64,000 nucleotides of DNA from an uncultured Actinomycetes bacterium (GCA_963794415.1 CAWCDI010000001.1:1868731-1932730), one strand, 5' to 3'. Shown: positions 3,878 to 9,078, counted from the first letter of the stretch. The notes: a model not told the origin generated them from the sequence alone. Numbers and translations: made by a program.

Positions 3878-3904
3878 CTCAACTCGCGACGCCACGAGCC
3901 GATC
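3878..3904 (+). promoter_or_regulatory. Sigma-28 (FliA/WhiG)-type promoter
   Basis: CTCA-N16-GCCGATC upstream of a chemoreceptor gene; fits the actinobacterial flagellar promoter pattern CTCA-N15/17-GCCGA. Confidence 0.7.
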
Positions 3905-3961
3905 AATCGGGCCGTCGGCCGGCTATCCGGGCCGTGTCCCCGTAGAAGGAGCTCGTCGCCC

Positions 3962-5449
3962 GTGTCCCAGCTCGCCTCGACCTATCGCATGAACGAGACC
4001 AACCTGGCGCTGCGCCGCGAGTTCATGGGGCTCACCCAGGACGACGTGGCGGTGCTCGCGAAGCTGCAGCCGTGGGCCGACAAGATCGCCGACCAGCTGG
4101 CCAGGGAGTTCTACGACATCCAGTTCAACTTCGAGCCGACGGTGCGCTTCTTCCGCGCCTACGGCGAGAAGAACGGCCGCTCGCTCGACCAGCTGCGCTC
4201 GGGGCTCGAGAAGGCCCAGGCCGGCTACTTCCGCCAGATCTTCGGGGAGGCCGCCGGCCGCGGCACCTTCGGCGTGGACTACTTCGAGCAGCGGCTGCAG
4301 GTCGGCCGCCTCCACAACGCCATCGACCTGCCGCTCAAGTGGTACATCGGGAGCTACCCGCGCTACTTCGACCTCACCCGCAAGCACCTGCGCAAGTCCT
4401 ATCCCCACCGCCCGCGCATGCGCGCCCAGGCCGAGCGCGCCGTCCTGACGGTGATGAACGCCGACATGCAGGCCATCGTCGAGGCCTTCTACTTCGACAC
4501 CTTCGCGACCATGGGCGTGCAGCTCGAGACCATCCCGGTTGACACCTCGAGCGAGGACCTGTCGGATCGCGGCCAGCACCTGAAGGCCATGGTGCGGGTG
4601 CCGCTGGAGGGCGTCACGAAGGCGCTCGTCACGCTCAAGGCGACCGCCGAGCGGATGGAGGGCGCCTCGAGCGAGGCCGGCCGCGCAGTGGCCGAGATCG
4701 CCCAGGCGGTGACCGATGTGGCCGAGGGCGCCGAGCGCCAGGTGCGCATGGTGACCAAGGCGCGCGACAGCGCCACCGAGACCGCCACCGAGGCCGCCGC
4801 AGCCCAGCAGATGTCCGAGGAGGGCGTGAGCTCGGCCGGACGCGCCGCCGACGCGATGCAGGCCGTGCGCGACTCGTCGGAGACCGTCTCGAGCGTCATG
4901 GGCGAGCTCTCGGGCATGTCCGAGGAGATCGGCACCATCGTCGAGACCATCACCAACATCGCGGGCCAGACCAACCTGCTGGCGCTGAACGCCGCCATCG
5001 AGGCCGCCCGCGCAGGCGAGCAGGGCCGCGGATTCGCCGTGGTCGCCGAGGAGGTGCGAAAGCTCGCCGAGGAGAGCCAGCTGGCCGCCGAGCGCATCGC
5101 AACCCTCATCGCCCGCATCCAGCGCGAGACCACCTCCGCCGTCGCCGCGGTCGCATCGAGCGCCGAGCAGACCGATGCCGGCGTGGCCGTGGTCGAGCAG
5201 ACCCGCGAGGCCTTCGCCGCCATCACCCAGCGCGTGGCCGGCATCGCCGACCGCGTCGATTCGATCGTCTCGGCCGCCACCGAGGTGGCCGCGGTCGCCG
5301 AGCAGTCGTCGGCGTCGGTCGAGCAGGTCTCGGCATCCACCCAGGAGACAAGCGCGACGACCGATGCGGTGGCCGCCTCGGCCGCCGAGCTCGCGCGGAC
5401 GGCCGCCGACCTCGAGACGATCGTGGCCGGGTTCAACCTCGAGGCGTGA
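3962..5449 (+). CDS. Globin-coupled sensor (HemAT-like soluble chemoreceptor)
   Basis: GTG start after AGGAG; N-terminal protoglobin-like domain ([23 protein letters not shown] with candidate proximal His); C-terminal MCP motif [27 protein letters not shown]; no TM helix. Confidence 0.9.
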
Positions 5450-6054
5450 TCGTGGCGCGACGCCTGCTCGGGCCGCTGGTGATCGTGCTGGTTGCGATCG
5501 CCGCGGCCGTTGCCGGCGGCGGGGTCTACGCGACCTGGACGGGCACGGCCTCGCAGTCGCAGGCGATCGGCTCGGGCACCCTCACAGCCACCTTCGGCGC
5601 CGCCGGCACGTCCGCCAACCGCATCTCGCTCGCGATCACCGACATGACCGCGGGCGTGCCGGTGTTCCGCCCGCTCGACGTGATCAACGGGGCCGACCTC
5701 ACCGCTTTGCAGATGTCGACGGGCTCGGCGAGCCCGTCCTCCACGCTCAACAGCGACACCACCAACGGCATCCAGATGACCGTCACCCGCTGCTCGGTGC
5801 CGTGGACGGAGTCGGGGACATCGCCCAGCTTCAGCTACGCCTGCTCGGGCACGACCACGACCGCGATCGCAGCGGGCTCCCTCCAGACGTCGACCCAAAC
5901 CCTTACCGGCAGTCCCGACCTCACTAACGGCGGGACCAACCATCTGCTCTACCGTTTCATGATCCCGTCGGCGACCTCCACGTCGTTCGAGGGGCTCACG
6001 ACCGGCGTCACGTTCCGGTTCTTCAGCCAGCAGCGCACCGCCGGCAGCCGCTAG
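5446..6054 (+). CDS. TasA/CalY-like secreted protein with SipW-type signal peptide (paralog 1)
   Basis: Signal ends GGVYATWT, then SGTL; Ser/Thr-rich; [22 protein letters not shown] overlap with the globin sensor stop. Confidence 0.8.
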
Positions 6055-6083
6055 CTCAAGAAGCCCGCGCCGCCTCCGACTAC
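6055..6083 (+). promoter_or_regulatory. Sigma-28-type promoter
   Basis: CTCA-N16-TCCGACTAC; ATG follows at 6090. Confidence 0.62.
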
Positions 6084-6089
6084 GTGGGC

Positions 6090-7447: not shown

Positions 7448-7476
7448 CTCAACACTGGTTCGCCGCATCCGACTAC
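7448..7476 (+). promoter_or_regulatory. Sigma-28-type promoter
   Basis: CTCA-N16-TCCGACTAC, same -35, spacing and -10 as the site at 6055. Confidence 0.62.
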
Positions 7477-7521
7477 CTGGGGGTCATCCATCCGACCTCA
7501 ACCGGCAACGGAGCTTCCCTC

Positions 7522-8118
7522 ATGCGCTCTCTGAGCAGACGAACACGGCTTTTCATCCTCCCCACGGTGATCCTCATCGCGGCGATCGTCGCGGCGTTCG
7601 GCGCCTGGGCGAGCTTCACCAGCTCGACCACTGCAGTGACCCAGAACTTCTCGACGGGCACGTTCACGGTCGATGTCGGCGCGACCGGCGGCCAGGCCAA
7701 CCGGCTGAACGTGAACGCGACCGACGTGAACCCCGGCGACACCATCCAGCGAAGCGTCGATCTCATCAACTCGGGCACGCTCGACTTCGGCGCCATCACG
7801 CTCACGACCGACGCGACCACCAGCTCGGTGCTTGACACCGACACCACCGACGGCCTGCAGATGTCCATCGACCACTGCTCCAACAGCTGGACGGAGAGCG
7901 GCACCTCGCCCAACTACACCTACATCTGCGGGGGCTCGACGAGCACCGTGCTCGCGTCGCGGCCGGTGGTGGGCAACAACCTCTCGCTGAGCAACCTGGA
8001 CGCTGTCAACGGTGGCAACACCGACCACCTCCGGGTGACGTTCACGCTGCCCTCGACCGCCGACAACACGTTCGAGGGCAAGAGCTCGTCCATCCGGTTC
8101 GTCTTCACCGCGAACTAG
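7522..8118 (+). CDS. TasA/CalY-like secreted protein (paralog 4)
   Basis: Signal ends FGAWASFT; VNPGDTIQR; FTLPSTADNTFEGKS; GGAG RBS. Confidence 0.85.
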   Translation: MRSLSRRTRLFILPTVILIAAIVAAFGAWASFTSSTTAVTQNFSTGTFTVDVGATGGQANRLNVNATDVNPGDTIQRSVDLINSGTLDFGAITLTTDATTSSVLDTDTTDGLQMSIDHCSNSWTESGTSPNYTYICGGSTSTVLASRPVVGNNLSLSNLDAVNGGNTDHLRVTFTLPSTADNTFEGKSSSIRFVFTAN

Positions 8119-8125
8119 CCCGCAC

Positions 8126-8644
8126 GTGGGCCGGTTCGCAGGCTTCTGCGCCACCGGGCTCGCGGGCCTGGTCGCGCTGGTGACGATCGTGATGGTGGCG
8201 GGCACGCTCACGGGGAAGATGCGCGTGCTGCCCGTGCTCTCGGGCAGCATGACGCCCGCATTCGACACGGGCTCGGCCGCGATCGTGACGCCGCAGGCAG
8301 CATCCGCGCTCCGCGTCGGCGAGGTGGTCGTCTACCACATCCCCGTGATGGATCACCACCTCGTGATGCACCGCGTCGTGAAGGTGCTGCACCACCACGC
8401 GGGCACGATCATCACCACGCGCGGCGACGCCAACCCGGTGGACGATCCGTGGACGGCGCGGCTGAAGGGCGGCGTGGTGTGGGTTGCCCACGGCGACGTG
8501 CCGCTGGCCGGCTACGCCATCGTGGCCCTGCGCTCGCCGTTCACCATCGCGGGCATCGTCCTGATGGTCGCCGCGTGGGTCGCCGGGACGATGGCCGTGC
8601 GCGAGTGGCGAAAGCGCGACGACGACATCTGGTGGCAGCTGTGA
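8126..8644 (+). CDS. sipW: Signal peptidase I, SipW/ER-type (S26B)
   Basis: VLSGSMTP (catalytic Ser), VMHRVV (His general base), TRGDANP..D; N- and C-terminal TM helices; adjacent to TasA-like genes. Confidence 0.9.
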   Translation: MGRFAGFCATGLAGLVALVTIVMVAGTLTGKMRVLPVLSGSMTPAFDTGSAAIVTPQAASALRVGEVVVYHIPVMDHHLVMHRVVKVLHHHAGTIITTRGDANPVDDPWTARLKGGVVWVAHGDVPLAGYAIVALRSPFTIAGIVLMVAAWVAGTMAVREWRKRDDDIWWQL

Positions 8645-9078
8645 GGGTGAGGCGCCTCCACGTGATGGTCGCCGCGATGGCGATCTTCTGCGCGACCGCA
8701 GGAGCCGGCACCGCTGCATGGTCGGTGGGGCTCACCATCACGCCGGGCCAGCCGTTCACGAGCGCGACCTTCACCACCCCGGCGAGCCCGGCGGTGGTCA
8801 ACTACGACTGCTCGTCGTCGCTGGGCGCCCGCGTGCAGCTCAGCTGGACGGGGGCGGGCGGCTCGGGCGACGGGATCGACCTGCTGCGCGCCACCTCCTC
8901 GGGCGGGCCGTACACCGACCAGGGGGTGCAGACGTCGTCGATCGGCACCGGCAGCTTCATCTCGCCGTACATGACGCGAAACACGCACTACTGGTTCGAG
9001 CTGCGAACCACGGTGAACGGCGGCACGTGGTTCAGCACGGCGACGTCCTCGGTGAACGTCGTGACGCTCAACTGCTGA
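8641..9078 (+). CDS. SipW-type secreted protein with fibronectin-III-like beta domain
   Basis: GTGA overlap with sipW; signal ends GAGTAAWS; VQLSWT...LLRATSSGGPYT...YWFELRT pattern; two Cys in the mature part. Confidence 0.7.
   Translation: MRVRRLHVMVAAMAIFCATAGAGTAAWSVGLTITPGQPFTSATFTTPASPAVVNYDCSSSLGARVQLSWTGAGGSGDGIDLLRATSSGGPYTDQGVQTSSIGTGSFISPYMTRNTHYWFELRTTVNGGTWFSTATSSVNVVTLNC

What the first reader, a model, noticed from the sequence alone, without database searches (positions are those of the whole stretch)
3878..9078. Oxygen-sensing chemoreceptor translationally coupled to a SipW fibre locus under sigma-28-like promoters
Seen: CTCA-N16-GCCGATC at 3878 and two CTCA-N16-TCCGACTAC sites at 6055 and 7448; the globin-MCP stop overlaps the first TasA-like start (GTGA). 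Known: CTCA-N15/17-GCCGA is the flagellar (FliA-type) promoter pattern in motile actinobacteria, and in Bacillus subtilis tapA-sipW-tasA expression alternates with the SigD motility state. Inference: here the fibre appears to be part of the motility/chemotaxis regulon, the opposite logic, perhaps as an attachment appendage of motile cells.
Basis: partly seen in the sequence, partly recalled or inferred. Interest (0 to 1): 0.75.

Follow-up and report, generated by a model that had tools for sequence, protein, structure and literature searches.

The report
WhiG-driven TasA fibre operon with globin sensor
An uncultured, apparently non-flagellated soil actinobacterium has a Bacillus-like surface-fibre operon that looks switched on by the sigma factor WhiG rather than by a flagellar programme, and an oxygen-sensor gene has been slotted in as its first gene.

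Summary
The three CTCA-N16-[G/T]CCGA sites lie at 3878, 6055 and 7448. The genes are a protoglobin-MCP, four TasA-like paralogs, a SipW-type signal peptidase and a small secreted protein.

The sites are probably real sigma-28-family promoters:
- In the closest relative with the same cassette (G006), both TCCGACTAC sites and their CTCAA boxes are identical while the spacers have diverged.
- A third box, upstream of the first fibre gene in G006, resembles the 3878 site.
- The same box type sits before a polysaccharide gene in 5 of 5 genomes of the genus.
- 11 of 19 related TasA/SipW loci carry a CCGAT[A/T] box upstream.

The "motility/chemotaxis regulon" reading fails for this organism.
- No flagellin, FlhA, CheW or CheA was found in the genome (87% complete). 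No flagellin was found in six genus relatives.
- The only sigma-28 is a WhiG equivalog, and a single-motif RsiG anti-sigma homolog is present. The flagellum-linked paralog seen in flagellated relatives is missing.

The globin-MCP has orthologs only in two flagellated relatives, one of them next to cheW. Here it sits between the operon promoter and the first fibre gene.

This scan reached the WhiG/TasA reading before on other genomes. I rate it a new variant of a known kind, of moderate interest.

The parts
3878..3905 (+). P1, sigma-28-type promoter: CTCAAC, spacer, GCCGATCA. It lies 56 nt before the MCP start, with GAAGGAG as ribosome site in between.
   Evidence: It resembles the box upstream of the first fibre gene in G006 (TCTTAACTCG...GCCGATTT against TCTCAACTCG...GCCGATC).
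3962..5449 (+). HemAT-like globin-coupled MCP: protoglobin domain plus MCP signalling domain, no transmembrane part predicted by family hits.
   Evidence: Pfam Protoglobin 3.2e-22 and MCPsignal 2.3e-42. The conserved hairpin tip aligns with PDB 2CH7. The proximal His aligns with the globin sensors 8H17 and 2W31. Orthologs at 66-67% identity over the full length exist only in G027 and G034.
5446..6054 (+). T1, the most diverged TasA-like paralog. Start is GTG 5446 (overlapping the MCP stop) or GTG 5452.
   Evidence: No Pfam hit. It aligns with the other paralogs and keeps both invariant Cys. Its G006 ortholog is 44% identical.
6055..6083 (+). P2, internal promoter: CTCAAG, spacer, TCCGACTAC. 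The ATG of T2 lies 6 nt after the box, so a leaderless mRNA is likely.
   Evidence: In G006 both boxes are identical (16 of 16 bases) while the spacer keeps 3 of 13.
6090..6710 (+). T2, TasA-like subunit (alternative start GTG 6084).
   Evidence: Peptidase_M73, 39.5 bits against a cut-off of 22.5. ATG 6090 matches the start of the G006 ortholog.
6744..7439 (+). T3, TasA-like subunit with a longer N-terminal extension.
   Evidence: Peptidase_M73, 30.7 bits. No sigma-28 box in the 33-nt gap before it.
7448..7476 (+). P3, internal promoter: CTCAAC, spacer, TCCGACTAC. A conserved leader of about 45 nt with GGAG follows.
   Evidence: In G006 the boxes keep 15 of 15 bases and the spacer 4 of 14, and the leader TCAACCGGCAACGGAGC is conserved.
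7522..8118 (+). T4, TasA-like subunit.
   Evidence: Peptidase_M73, 45 bits. AlphaFold2 model with mean pLDDT 73; the best PDB match is the TasA fibre 8AUR, E 2.9e-5, probability 1.00, TM 0.47.
8126..8644 (+). SipW/archaeal-type signal peptidase I.
   Evidence: TIGR02228, 75 bits against 51.85; the SipW equivalog scores 50.9 bits, below its cut-off of 190. It lies next to TasA-like genes in 18 of 19 related loci.
8662..9078 (+). X, a small secreted protein of no known family whose N-terminus resembles the fibre subunits' signal (alternative start 8647).
   Evidence: No Pfam or NCBIfam family. Found again only in G006, as a partial 44% match. Sequence.

Best explanation
The locus is one fibre cassette: P1, globin-MCP, T1, P2, T2, T3, P3, T4, SipW, X. 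It is transcribed from three sigma-28-family promoters by the genome's only sigma-28, a WhiG (WhiG2-clade) sigma factor.

WhiG here has a single-motif RsiG partner. By analogy with Streptomyces and Rubrobacter, c-di-GMP-loaded RsiG would hold WhiG inactive, and falling c-di-GMP would release it. The fibre would then come on together with Tad-pilus, cell-wall and c-di-GMP-turnover genes. This step is inferred, not shown.

SipW removes the special signal peptides of T1-T4 and probably X. The subunits then assemble into a TasA-type fibre; this is inferred from family and fold.

The globin-MCP is a HemAT-like cytoplasmic haem sensor. Its relatives in flagellated kin sit with cheW. Here the gene has landed between the cassette's promoter and its first subunit gene, in a lineage without flagella, CheA or CheW. 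It is therefore co-expressed with the fibre, but its output partner is unknown.
For: 1. Sigma factor. There is one TIGR02479 match above cut-off (286.7 bits), and it passes the NCBIfam WhiG equivalog (364 bits against 343).

2. Paralog pattern in relatives. Almost all 60 relatives share this high-scoring type. Eleven flagellin-positive genomes have a second copy of about 200 bits within about 1.5-13 kb of flagellin genes. This matches the published WhiG1/WhiG2 split.

3. Anti-sigma. An RsiG homolog of 91 aa at C1:910135-910410 matches PDB 7LQ2_B at E 2.7e-9.

4. Genome-wide motif. The genome's own motif is TCAA-N16-GCCGATA(G/A), which is the published WhiG2 consensus. Of its 20 annotated targets, 14 have a Pfam family: GT87 x3, RcpC/CpaB, a ParA/TadZ-like ATPase, NlpC/P60 x2, GAF-HD_5, a weak GGDEF, a LuxR-type regulator, plus E1_dh, zinc-ribbon and RNase HII hits. 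The two added rows give Polysacc_synt_2 and an MCP. None is flagellar.

5. Conservation. P2 and P3 boxes are identical in G006 with diverged spacers, and the distance to the start codon is kept. The same CTCAA-N15-GCCGACTA box precedes the Polysacc_synt_2 ortholog in G000, G003, G004, G005 and G006, with different spacers.

6. Wider loci. CCGAT[AT] lies on the sense strand within 300 nt upstream of the first TasA-like gene in 11 of 19 related loci, against 0.059 expected per locus. By genus: g1 2/2, g2 6/6, g7 1/2, g11 1/4, g4 0/1, g6 0/3, unplaced 1/1. One locus has a textbook TAAA-N15-GCCGATAT.

7. The junction is real. Contigs from other public runs bridge the MCP/T1 junction: X1 record 3 and X4 record 27.
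Against: 1. Weak PWM scores. On the position-weight matrix built from this genome's strongest sites, the three sites score only 11.7-14.3 bits, because of the T for G and the CTAC tail. At 12 bits or more there are 134 sense and 98 antisense upstream regions, so they would not be called by score alone.

2. Spacing. Their spacing (TCAA-N15) is one base shorter than the main class (N16; 38 of 45 sites). It equals that of flagellin promoters in flagellated relatives. They could therefore be promoters of the lost flagellar paralog, or targets of another factor.

3. Method limits. The matrix was seeded with the hypothesised pattern and uses a home-made gene caller.

4. No box in 8 of 19 related loci, including all three of genus g6. 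In genus g2 the -35 region does not match T(A/C)AA.

5. The RsiG-like protein has His where the c-di-GMP motif has Gln.

6. No transcript data exist.

7. The genome is 87% complete, so absences are 'not found'.
Confidence: 0.6

Rival explanations
1. One reading: the operon is part of a flagellar/chemotaxis (FliA) regulon, and the fibre is an attachment organ of swimming cells.
For: The sites match the flagellar-clade consensus CTCA-N16-17-GCCGA. They have the spacing of flagellin promoters in flagellated relatives. All three MCP genes carry such boxes. The globin-MCP's orthologs are in flagellated genomes, one of them next to cheW. The genome is only 87% complete.
Against: No flagellin, FlhA, CheW or CheA was found in the genome. 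Flagellin is in 0 of 6 genus relatives, two of them 93-95% complete. CheA is in 0 of 3 genus relatives, while the control G027 is positive. There is no second sigma-28 paralog.
Confidence: 0.05
2. The CTCAA-N15-[G/T]CCGACTA[C/T] boxes are real promoters but are read by a factor other than WhiG, such as another alternative sigma or an activator-dependent form. They would form a separate small regulon: fibre, MCP2 and a polysaccharide gene.
For: The subclass differs from the main class in spacing and in the -10 tail. Its members share very short distances to the start codon. One copy lies just downstream of a SigB/F/G-family sigma gene on contig 3.
Against: The invariant CGA core, the CTCAA -35 and the spacing are all within published sigma-28 variation. 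No other known actinobacterial sigma consensus that I recall resembles it. P1 and many related loci carry plain GCCGAT(A/C) boxes.
Confidence: 0.15
3. The boxes are relics of promoters for the lost flagellar sigma paralog, or chance matches, and the operon is now driven otherwise.
For: Low matrix scores. The bare pattern is common genome-wide.
Against: Boxes are fully conserved and spacers are not, across two genomes that both lack the flagellar paralog. The sister site is conserved in five of five genomes. 0 of 200,000 shuffles give three matches in these gaps. No sigma-70-like promoter was found in 3600-9400.
Confidence: 0.1

Closest known systems
Bacillus subtilis tapA-sipW-tasA (and B. cereus sipW-tasA-calY) biofilm fibre operons
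   Same: Peptidase_M73/TasA-family subunits lie next to a dedicated SipW-type signal peptidase. The predicted fold is closest to the TasA fibre 8AUR.
   Different: - Four tandem paralogs, and no TapA.
- The subunits score far below the TasA equivalog model (18-20 bits against 450) and have two invariant cysteines.
- Control appears to be by a sigma-28-family factor. In Bacillus the control is the SinR/SlrR switch, which opposes SigD motility (the Bacillus circuit is recalled, not checked here).
WhiG2-RsiG-(c-di-GMP) switch of Streptomyces venezuelae and Rubrobacter radiotolerans (PMC8325347; bioRxiv 10.64898/2026.01.14.699351)
   Same: WhiG equivalog, a single-motif RsiG homolog, and the promoter consensus T(A/C)AA-N16-GCCGATAA. 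Predicted targets include pilus and c-di-GMP genes in a unicellular, non-sporulating setting.
   Different: A TasA-like fibre operon and MCP genes are targets here. The fibre promoters use a variant -10 (TCCGACTAC) and N15 spacing.
HemAT-type globin-coupled aerotaxis transducers
   Same: Protoglobin sensor domain with the proximal His aligned, fused to a canonical MCP signalling hairpin.
   Different: It is encoded as the first gene of a fibre operon, in a genome where no CheA, CheW or flagellar gene was found.
Actinoplanes missouriensis FliA/WhiG1 regulon (flagella and type IV pili of zoospores)
   Same: The CTCA-N16-17-GCCGA promoter form, and a surface appendage under a sigma-28-family factor.
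   Different: There the cells are flagellated and the sigma belongs to the flagellar clade. Here that clade is not found.

Membership tests
TasA/camelysin family (Pfam PF12389) SipW-dependent fibre subunits | Match to PF12389 above the gathering score | tested here: met
   T2 39.5, T3 30.7 and T4 45.0 bits against 22.5. T1 has no hit but aligns with the paralogs.
TasA/camelysin family (Pfam PF12389) SipW-dependent fibre subunits | Adjacent dedicated SipW/archaeal-type signal peptidase I | tested here: met
   TIGR02228, 75 bits against 51.85. The pairing is kept in 18 of 19 related loci.
TasA/camelysin family (Pfam PF12389) SipW-dependent fibre subunits | TasA-like beta-sandwich fold | tested here: met
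   AlphaFold2 model of T4 (pLDDT 73). The top PDB hit is 8AUR, E 2.9e-5, probability 1.00, but with a modest TM of 0.47. 5OF2 (TasA) has probability 0.99.
TasA/camelysin family (Pfam PF12389) SipW-dependent fibre subunits | Orthology to B. subtilis TasA (NCBIfam equivalog NF046066) | tested here: not met
   18-20 bits against a cut-off of 450. These are family members, not TasA orthologs.
TasA/camelysin family (Pfam PF12389) SipW-dependent fibre subunits | Assembly into donor-strand fibres | not testable with these tools
   Needs expression and electron microscopy.
Sigma-28 (FliA/WhiG) dependent promoter | -35 T(A/C)AA or CTCA, a spacer of 15-17, and a -10 with an invariant CGA core (GCCGATAA-like) | tested here: met
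   All three sites read TCAA-N15-[G/T]CCGA. P2 and P3 have T for the first G and a CTAC tail.
Sigma-28 (FliA/WhiG) dependent promoter | Cognate sigma factor encoded in the genome | tested here: met
   WhiG equivalog NF004935, 364 bits against 343.
Sigma-28 (FliA/WhiG) dependent promoter | Boxes conserved upstream of orthologs while the spacers drift | tested here: met
   G006. The sister site is kept in 5 of 5 genus genomes. A CCGAT[AT] box is present in 11 of 19 related loci.
Sigma-28 (FliA/WhiG) dependent promoter | High score on the genome's own sigma-28 matrix | tested here: inconclusive
   11.7-14.3 bits, against top sites of 22-28 bits.
Sigma-28 (FliA/WhiG) dependent promoter | Transcription start 6-9 nt after the -10 box, dependent on the sigma | not testable with these tools
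   No RNA run is listed for this DNA.
Flagellar/chemotaxis regulon | Flagellar structural and export genes present | tested here: not met
   Flagellin_N and FHIPEP: none in G000 (87% complete). Flagellin is in 0 of 6 genus relatives.
Flagellar/chemotaxis regulon | CheA and CheW present | tested here: not met
   CheW: none in G000. H-kinase_dim: none in G000, G003, G005 and G006, present in the control G027. G006 has only a CheW-CheC/CheX fusion, which was not found in G000.
Flagellar/chemotaxis regulon | Flagellum-linked sigma-28 paralog (WhiG1/FliA type) | tested here: not met
   G000 and its genus have one sigma-28 match each, of the high-scoring shared type.
HemAT-type globin-coupled MCP | Sensor globin with a proximal His, plus an MCP signalling domain | tested here: met
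HemAT-type globin-coupled MCP | Haem and O2 binding; signalling through CheA/CheW | not testable with these tools
   Binding needs biochemistry. The partners were not found in the genome.
WhiG2-RsiG c-di-GMP switch | RsiG homolog with the E-x3-S-x2-R-x3-Q-x3-D motif | tested here: inconclusive
   A 91-aa protein matches RsiG 7LQ2_B at E 2.7e-9, but its motif reads E-x3-S-x2-R-x3-H-x3-D. Binding was not tested.

The most novel reading that the evidence does not exclude
In a basal actinobacterial lineage that lost flagella and the CheA pathway, the remaining sigma-28 (WhiG, under RsiG/c-di-GMP) has taken over a TasA-type fibre. The orphan MCPs have been kept as part of that regulon. The haem-based oxygen sensor, co-transcribed and perhaps co-translated with the first fibre subunit, would then signal by a route that needs no CheA. 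It could tie fibre production or placement to oxygen. The control logic would be 'low c-di-GMP turns the matrix fibre on', the reverse of the usual biofilm rule.
Probability: 0.2. Interest if true: 0.75.

Novelty: new variant of a known kind. Interest (0 to 1): 0.5.

Why it matters
TasA-type fibres have been studied almost only in Bacillus, where they are repressed in motile, SigD-active cells. Here, and in several related uncultured soil actinobacteria, the same kind of fibre seems wired to the sigma-28 family. In this non-flagellated genus that means wired to the c-di-GMP-controlled WhiG.

This would add a surface fibre to the known WhiG outputs (spores, pili, flagella). It would also give a concrete case of how a flagellar sigma regulon is re-used after flagella are lost.

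The in-operon globin-MCP, in a genome without CheA or CheW, is a small, testable case of an orphan chemoreceptor.

Tried and rejected
- **Crude GC3 gene caller.** It chose antisense frames in the fibre genes. I replaced it with a codon-usage caller.
- **Antisense control for the matrix.** It is contaminated by divergent promoters, so I drew no false-positive rate from it.
- **RsiG by exact motif.** This found only a spurious frame. A search allowing one mismatch found the candidate.
- **The search for related loci with alignment A1.** It failed for lack of a conserved stretch. The single-protein run gave only two loci, both MAGs titled 'uncultured Actinomycetes bacterium', so I offer no finer taxonomy.
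- **Families for T1, X and the divergent 709-aa gene.** NCBIfam and Pfam gave nothing for T1 or X, and Pfam gave nothing for the 709-aa gene.
- **Terminators and sigma-70 promoters.** No intrinsic terminator and no sigma-70-like promoter was found on the + strand of 3600-9400.
- **RNA evidence.** No RNA holder is listed for this stretch. All runs laid were contigs, so no transcript ends could be read.
- **Globin-MCP near other fibre loci.** I looked within 8 kb of 19 related TasA/SipW loci and found none.
- **G006 CheW-CheC fusion in G000.** Only a 92-residue match to its doubtful N-terminal stretch turned up.
- **Literature.** The search TasA + SipW + Actinobacteria gave 17 papers. The 12 listed concern Bacillus or general topics by title and abstract. 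I read none of them.

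
Full report
**1. What is in the sequence**

The window is G000:C1:1868731-1932730, from a 3.97-Mb, 69% G+C assembly of five contigs rated 87% complete.

The genes on the + strand are as follows.
- A protoglobin + MCP-signalling protein, 3962-5449.
- Four tandem TasA/camelysin-like paralogs: T1 5446/5452-6054, T2 6090-6710, T3 6744-7439 and T4 7522-8118.
- A SipW/archaeal-type signal peptidase, 8126-8644.
- A small secreted protein X of no family, 8662-9078.

Three of the four paralogs pass the Pfam Peptidase_M73 threshold. 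T1 does not, but it aligns with them and keeps the two invariant cysteines. An AlphaFold2 model of T4 (pLDDT 73) finds the TasA fibre 8AUR as its only PDB match below E 0.001.

The GTGA stop/start overlap is there. An in-frame GTG six bases on has the better ribosome-site spacing. So "translationally coupled" is plausible but not certain.

**2. Is the motif more than chance?**

As a bare pattern it is common. The window has 4 matches against 2.2 expected, and the genome has 114. The placement is what counts. Three matches fall in the 276 nt of sense-strand intergenic DNA of one locus. Shuffles give a mean of 0.0025 matches, and none of 200,000 reaches three.

The stronger evidence is comparative. 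Among 60 relatives, 22 have a SipW match (23 of 61 with G000). I fetched 19 loci.

The closest, G006, is in the same genus and its SipW is 62% identical. It has the same array of four paralogs, SipW and X. At the two orthologous gaps it has CTCAAG...TCCGACTAC and CTCAAC...TCCGACTAC. The boxes are identical (16 of 16 and 15 of 15 bases). The spacers keep only 3 of 13 and 4 of 14 bases. The start codon of T2 follows the box by 6 nt here and 7 nt in G006, without a ribosome site. That fits a leaderless mRNA.

The same box type, CTCAA-N15-GCCGACTA, precedes a Polysacc_synt_2 gene in G000 and its orthologs (62-73% identical) in G003, G004, G005 and G006. The spacers again differ. It also precedes the genome's second MCP gene.

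**3. Which sigma factor?**

The genome has one FliA/WhiG-family match above cut-off, and it passes NCBI's WhiG equivalog model. Across 60 relatives, nearly every genome has one copy of this high-scoring type (about 262-294 bits for full-length matches). Eleven flagellin-positive genomes have a second copy of about 200 bits, lying 1.5-13 kb from flagellin genes. A few genomes without a flagellin match also have a second copy (G015, G019, G021).

This is the WhiG2/WhiG1 split described in a 2026 preprint. [quoted passage not shown] I read the abstract, section 8 and passages.

G000 and its genus have only the shared type. A 91-residue protein at C1:910135-910410 matches Rubrobacter RsiG (PDB 7LQ2_B, E 2.7e-9). 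One change falls in the c-di-GMP motif, His for Gln.

**4. The genome's own sigma-28 motif**

I used a home-made codon-usage gene caller (3,935 genes). I then refined a matrix iteratively, seeded on intergenic CTCA-N17/18-CCGA[TC] sites. It converged on CT(C/A)AAG...GCCGATA(G/A), that is TCAA-N16-GCCGATA. This equals the published WhiG2 consensus T(A/C)AA-N16-GCCGATAA. It shows conserved positions that were not in the seed.

I annotated 18 of the 25 best targets plus two CCGACTA-class targets. Six of the 20 have no Pfam family. The others are:
- three GT87 glycosyltransferases;
- RcpC/CpaB and a ParA/TadZ-like ATPase (Tad pilus);
- two NlpC/P60 hydrolases;
- a GAF-HD_5 protein, a weak GGDEF match and a LuxR-type response regulator;
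- an E1 dehydrogenase component, a zinc-ribbon protein and an RNase HII-like protein;
- from the two added rows, the polysaccharide gene and MCP2.

None is flagellar. This resembles the Rubrobacter regulon of pili and c-di-GMP enzymes (passages).

**5. Evidence against my reading**

On that matrix the three sites score only 11.7-14.3 bits, while the best sites score 22-28. At 12 bits or more there are 134 sense and 98 antisense upstream regions. Score alone would not call them.

Their spacing, TCAA-N15, is one base shorter than the main class. It equals that of flagellin promoters in flagellated relatives, which read GCT(A/C)AA-N14/15-G(C/T/G)CGAT(T/A/G)AC. They may therefore descend from promoters of the flagellar paralog, or be read by another factor.

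Because both G000 and G006 lack that paralog yet keep the boxes intact, I think the remaining WhiG reads them. This step is inferred.

**6. The motility reading**

Searches of G000 found no Flagellin_N, no FHIPEP/FlhA, no CheW and no CheA dimerisation domain. Each search's controls were positive.

In the genus:
- Flagellin is in 0 of 6 genomes, two of them 93-95% complete.
- CheA is in 0 of 3.
- CheW hits are weak single ones. In G006 the hit is a CheW-CheC/CheX fusion, which I could not find in G000.
- The five genus genomes searched still hold 2-3 MCP genes each.

In G000 all three MCP genes carry a sigma-28-type box. MCP1, whose start is just outside the window, has TAAA-N15-GACGATTAC. The family as a whole is mixed: flagellin is in 14 of 36 genomes.

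There the two sigma paralogs cannot be told apart by sequence.

**7. The globin-MCP**

Its globin domain has strong matches in only 2 of 60 relatives, G034 (70%) and G027 (67%). Both are flagellated and belong to other genera. There is none in its own genus. In G027 the gene is followed by cheW.

None of the 19 related fibre loci has a globin-MCP within 8 kb. In G006 the first fibre gene is preceded directly by TCTTAACTCG...GCCGATTT, which resembles P1 here (TCTCAACTCG...GCCGATC). I infer that the MCP gene was inserted between the cassette's promoter and T1. The alternative, that it brought its own sigma-28 promoter, is not excluded.

The junction is not an assembly artefact. A 1,671-nt contig of run X1, possibly the source sample, bridges it. 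So does a 201-nt contig of run X4, from another study, with 7 differences.

**8. Wider support**

On the sense strand within 300 nt upstream of the first TasA-like gene, CCGAT[AT] occurs in 11 of 19 related loci. The expected rate is 0.059 per locus.

| Genus | Loci with the box |
|---|---|
| g1 | 2/2 |
| g2 | 6/6 |
| g7 | 1/2 |
| g11 | 1/4 |
| g4 | 0/1 |
| g6 | 0/3 |
| unplaced | 1/1 |

Related genomes are not independent, so the binomial figure overstates. The genus spread is the fairer summary. One locus (L023) has a textbook TAAA-N15-GCCGATAT. In genus g2 the -35 region is not canonical.

**9. Comparison and novelty**

The parts are all known kinds: a TasA/SipW fibre cassette, a WhiG-RsiG switch and a HemAT-like sensor. 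What differs is the wiring. The fibre is under a sigma-28-family factor in a non-flagellated lineage, with two internal promoters, and a globin-MCP is the first cistron.

In print, the 2026 preprint lists motility, chemotaxis, pili, c-di-GMP enzymes, regulators and metabolite genes as predicted targets. It does not mention TasA or SipW in its main text. I did not open its supplements, so a Peptidase_M73 cluster may be listed there. A three-term literature search gave no actinobacterial TasA study among the 12 titles listed.

This scan reached the same WhiG/TasA reading earlier on other genomes: e1-2419702, e1-6547534, e1-6547525 and e1-3877610. Those are unchecked notes, not independent evidence. 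None mentioned an MCP.

**10. Verdict**

The promoter idea is supported, at about 0.6 that WhiG drives the operon. The motility/chemotaxis framing is not supported for this organism. I rate it a new variant of a known kind, with interest 0.5.

Noticed in passing
window 1-1720 (+); gene start and promoter lie about 50-100 nt before the window, at about C1:1868600-1868679: A second MCP gene (MCPsignal 4.7e-43, N-terminal part of no family) lies 2 kb upstream of the locus. It has a near-canonical sigma-28 box, TAAA-N15-GACGATTAC, about 45 nt before its start. All three MCP genes of this genome, which has no CheA or CheW that I could find, carry such boxes.
   Followed up: partly
G000:C1:910135-910410 (-), outside the window: A 91-aa single-motif RsiG homolog (PDB 7LQ2_B, E 2.7e-9) with His in place of the motif's Gln. 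It lies in a 10-kb stretch (C1:902110-908319) that holds four of the 50 best sigma-28 matrix hits.
   Followed up: partly
window 22144-22175 (+), upstream of the gene at 22414-23079: One of the ten best genome-wide matches to the WhiG-type motif (CTAAAG...GCCGATGG). It lies 238 nt before a 221-aa gene of no Pfam family.
   Followed up: no
window 1707-3836 (-): A 709-aa gene, divergent from the globin-MCP and sharing its 125-nt intergenic region, has no Pfam or NCBIfam family. It was not found next to the cassette in G006.
   Followed up: no
L058 6765-8168 (-) = G006:C8: Four of the six other genus genomes searched (G002, G003, G005, G006) hold a single CheW-domain frame, and G001 a split one. 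In G006 it is a CheW + CheC/CheX fusion protein, with no CheA found in the three genus genomes searched (G003, G005, G006). This is an odd reduced chemosensory remnant. It was not found in G000.
   Followed up: partly
G000:C3:87102-87130 (-), L002 about 1455-1483: A TTCAAG-N14-TCCGACTAC box lies immediately after the stop of a SigB/F/G-family sigma gene (TIGR02980, 247.8 bits), within a cluster of three sigma genes. The downstream ORFs have no family.
   Followed up: partly
L031-L037 (flagellin loci of G027, G017, G029, G035, G009, G007, G014): Flagellin genes of flagellated relatives carry a very regular promoter, GCT(A/C)AA-N14/15-G(C/T/G)CGAT(T/A/G)AC, followed by a conserved GC-rich hairpin-like leader and CTTCAAGGAGGAAG. 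A csrA-like small gene lies directly before a further flagellin copy.
   Followed up: no
window 17539-18344 and 25244-25980 (+): Two ECF-type sigma genes. The first is followed by a zf-HC2 anti-sigma gene. The second is followed by a small ORF with a weak Frankia_peptide match (23.7 bits, below the cut-off of 48).
   Followed up: no
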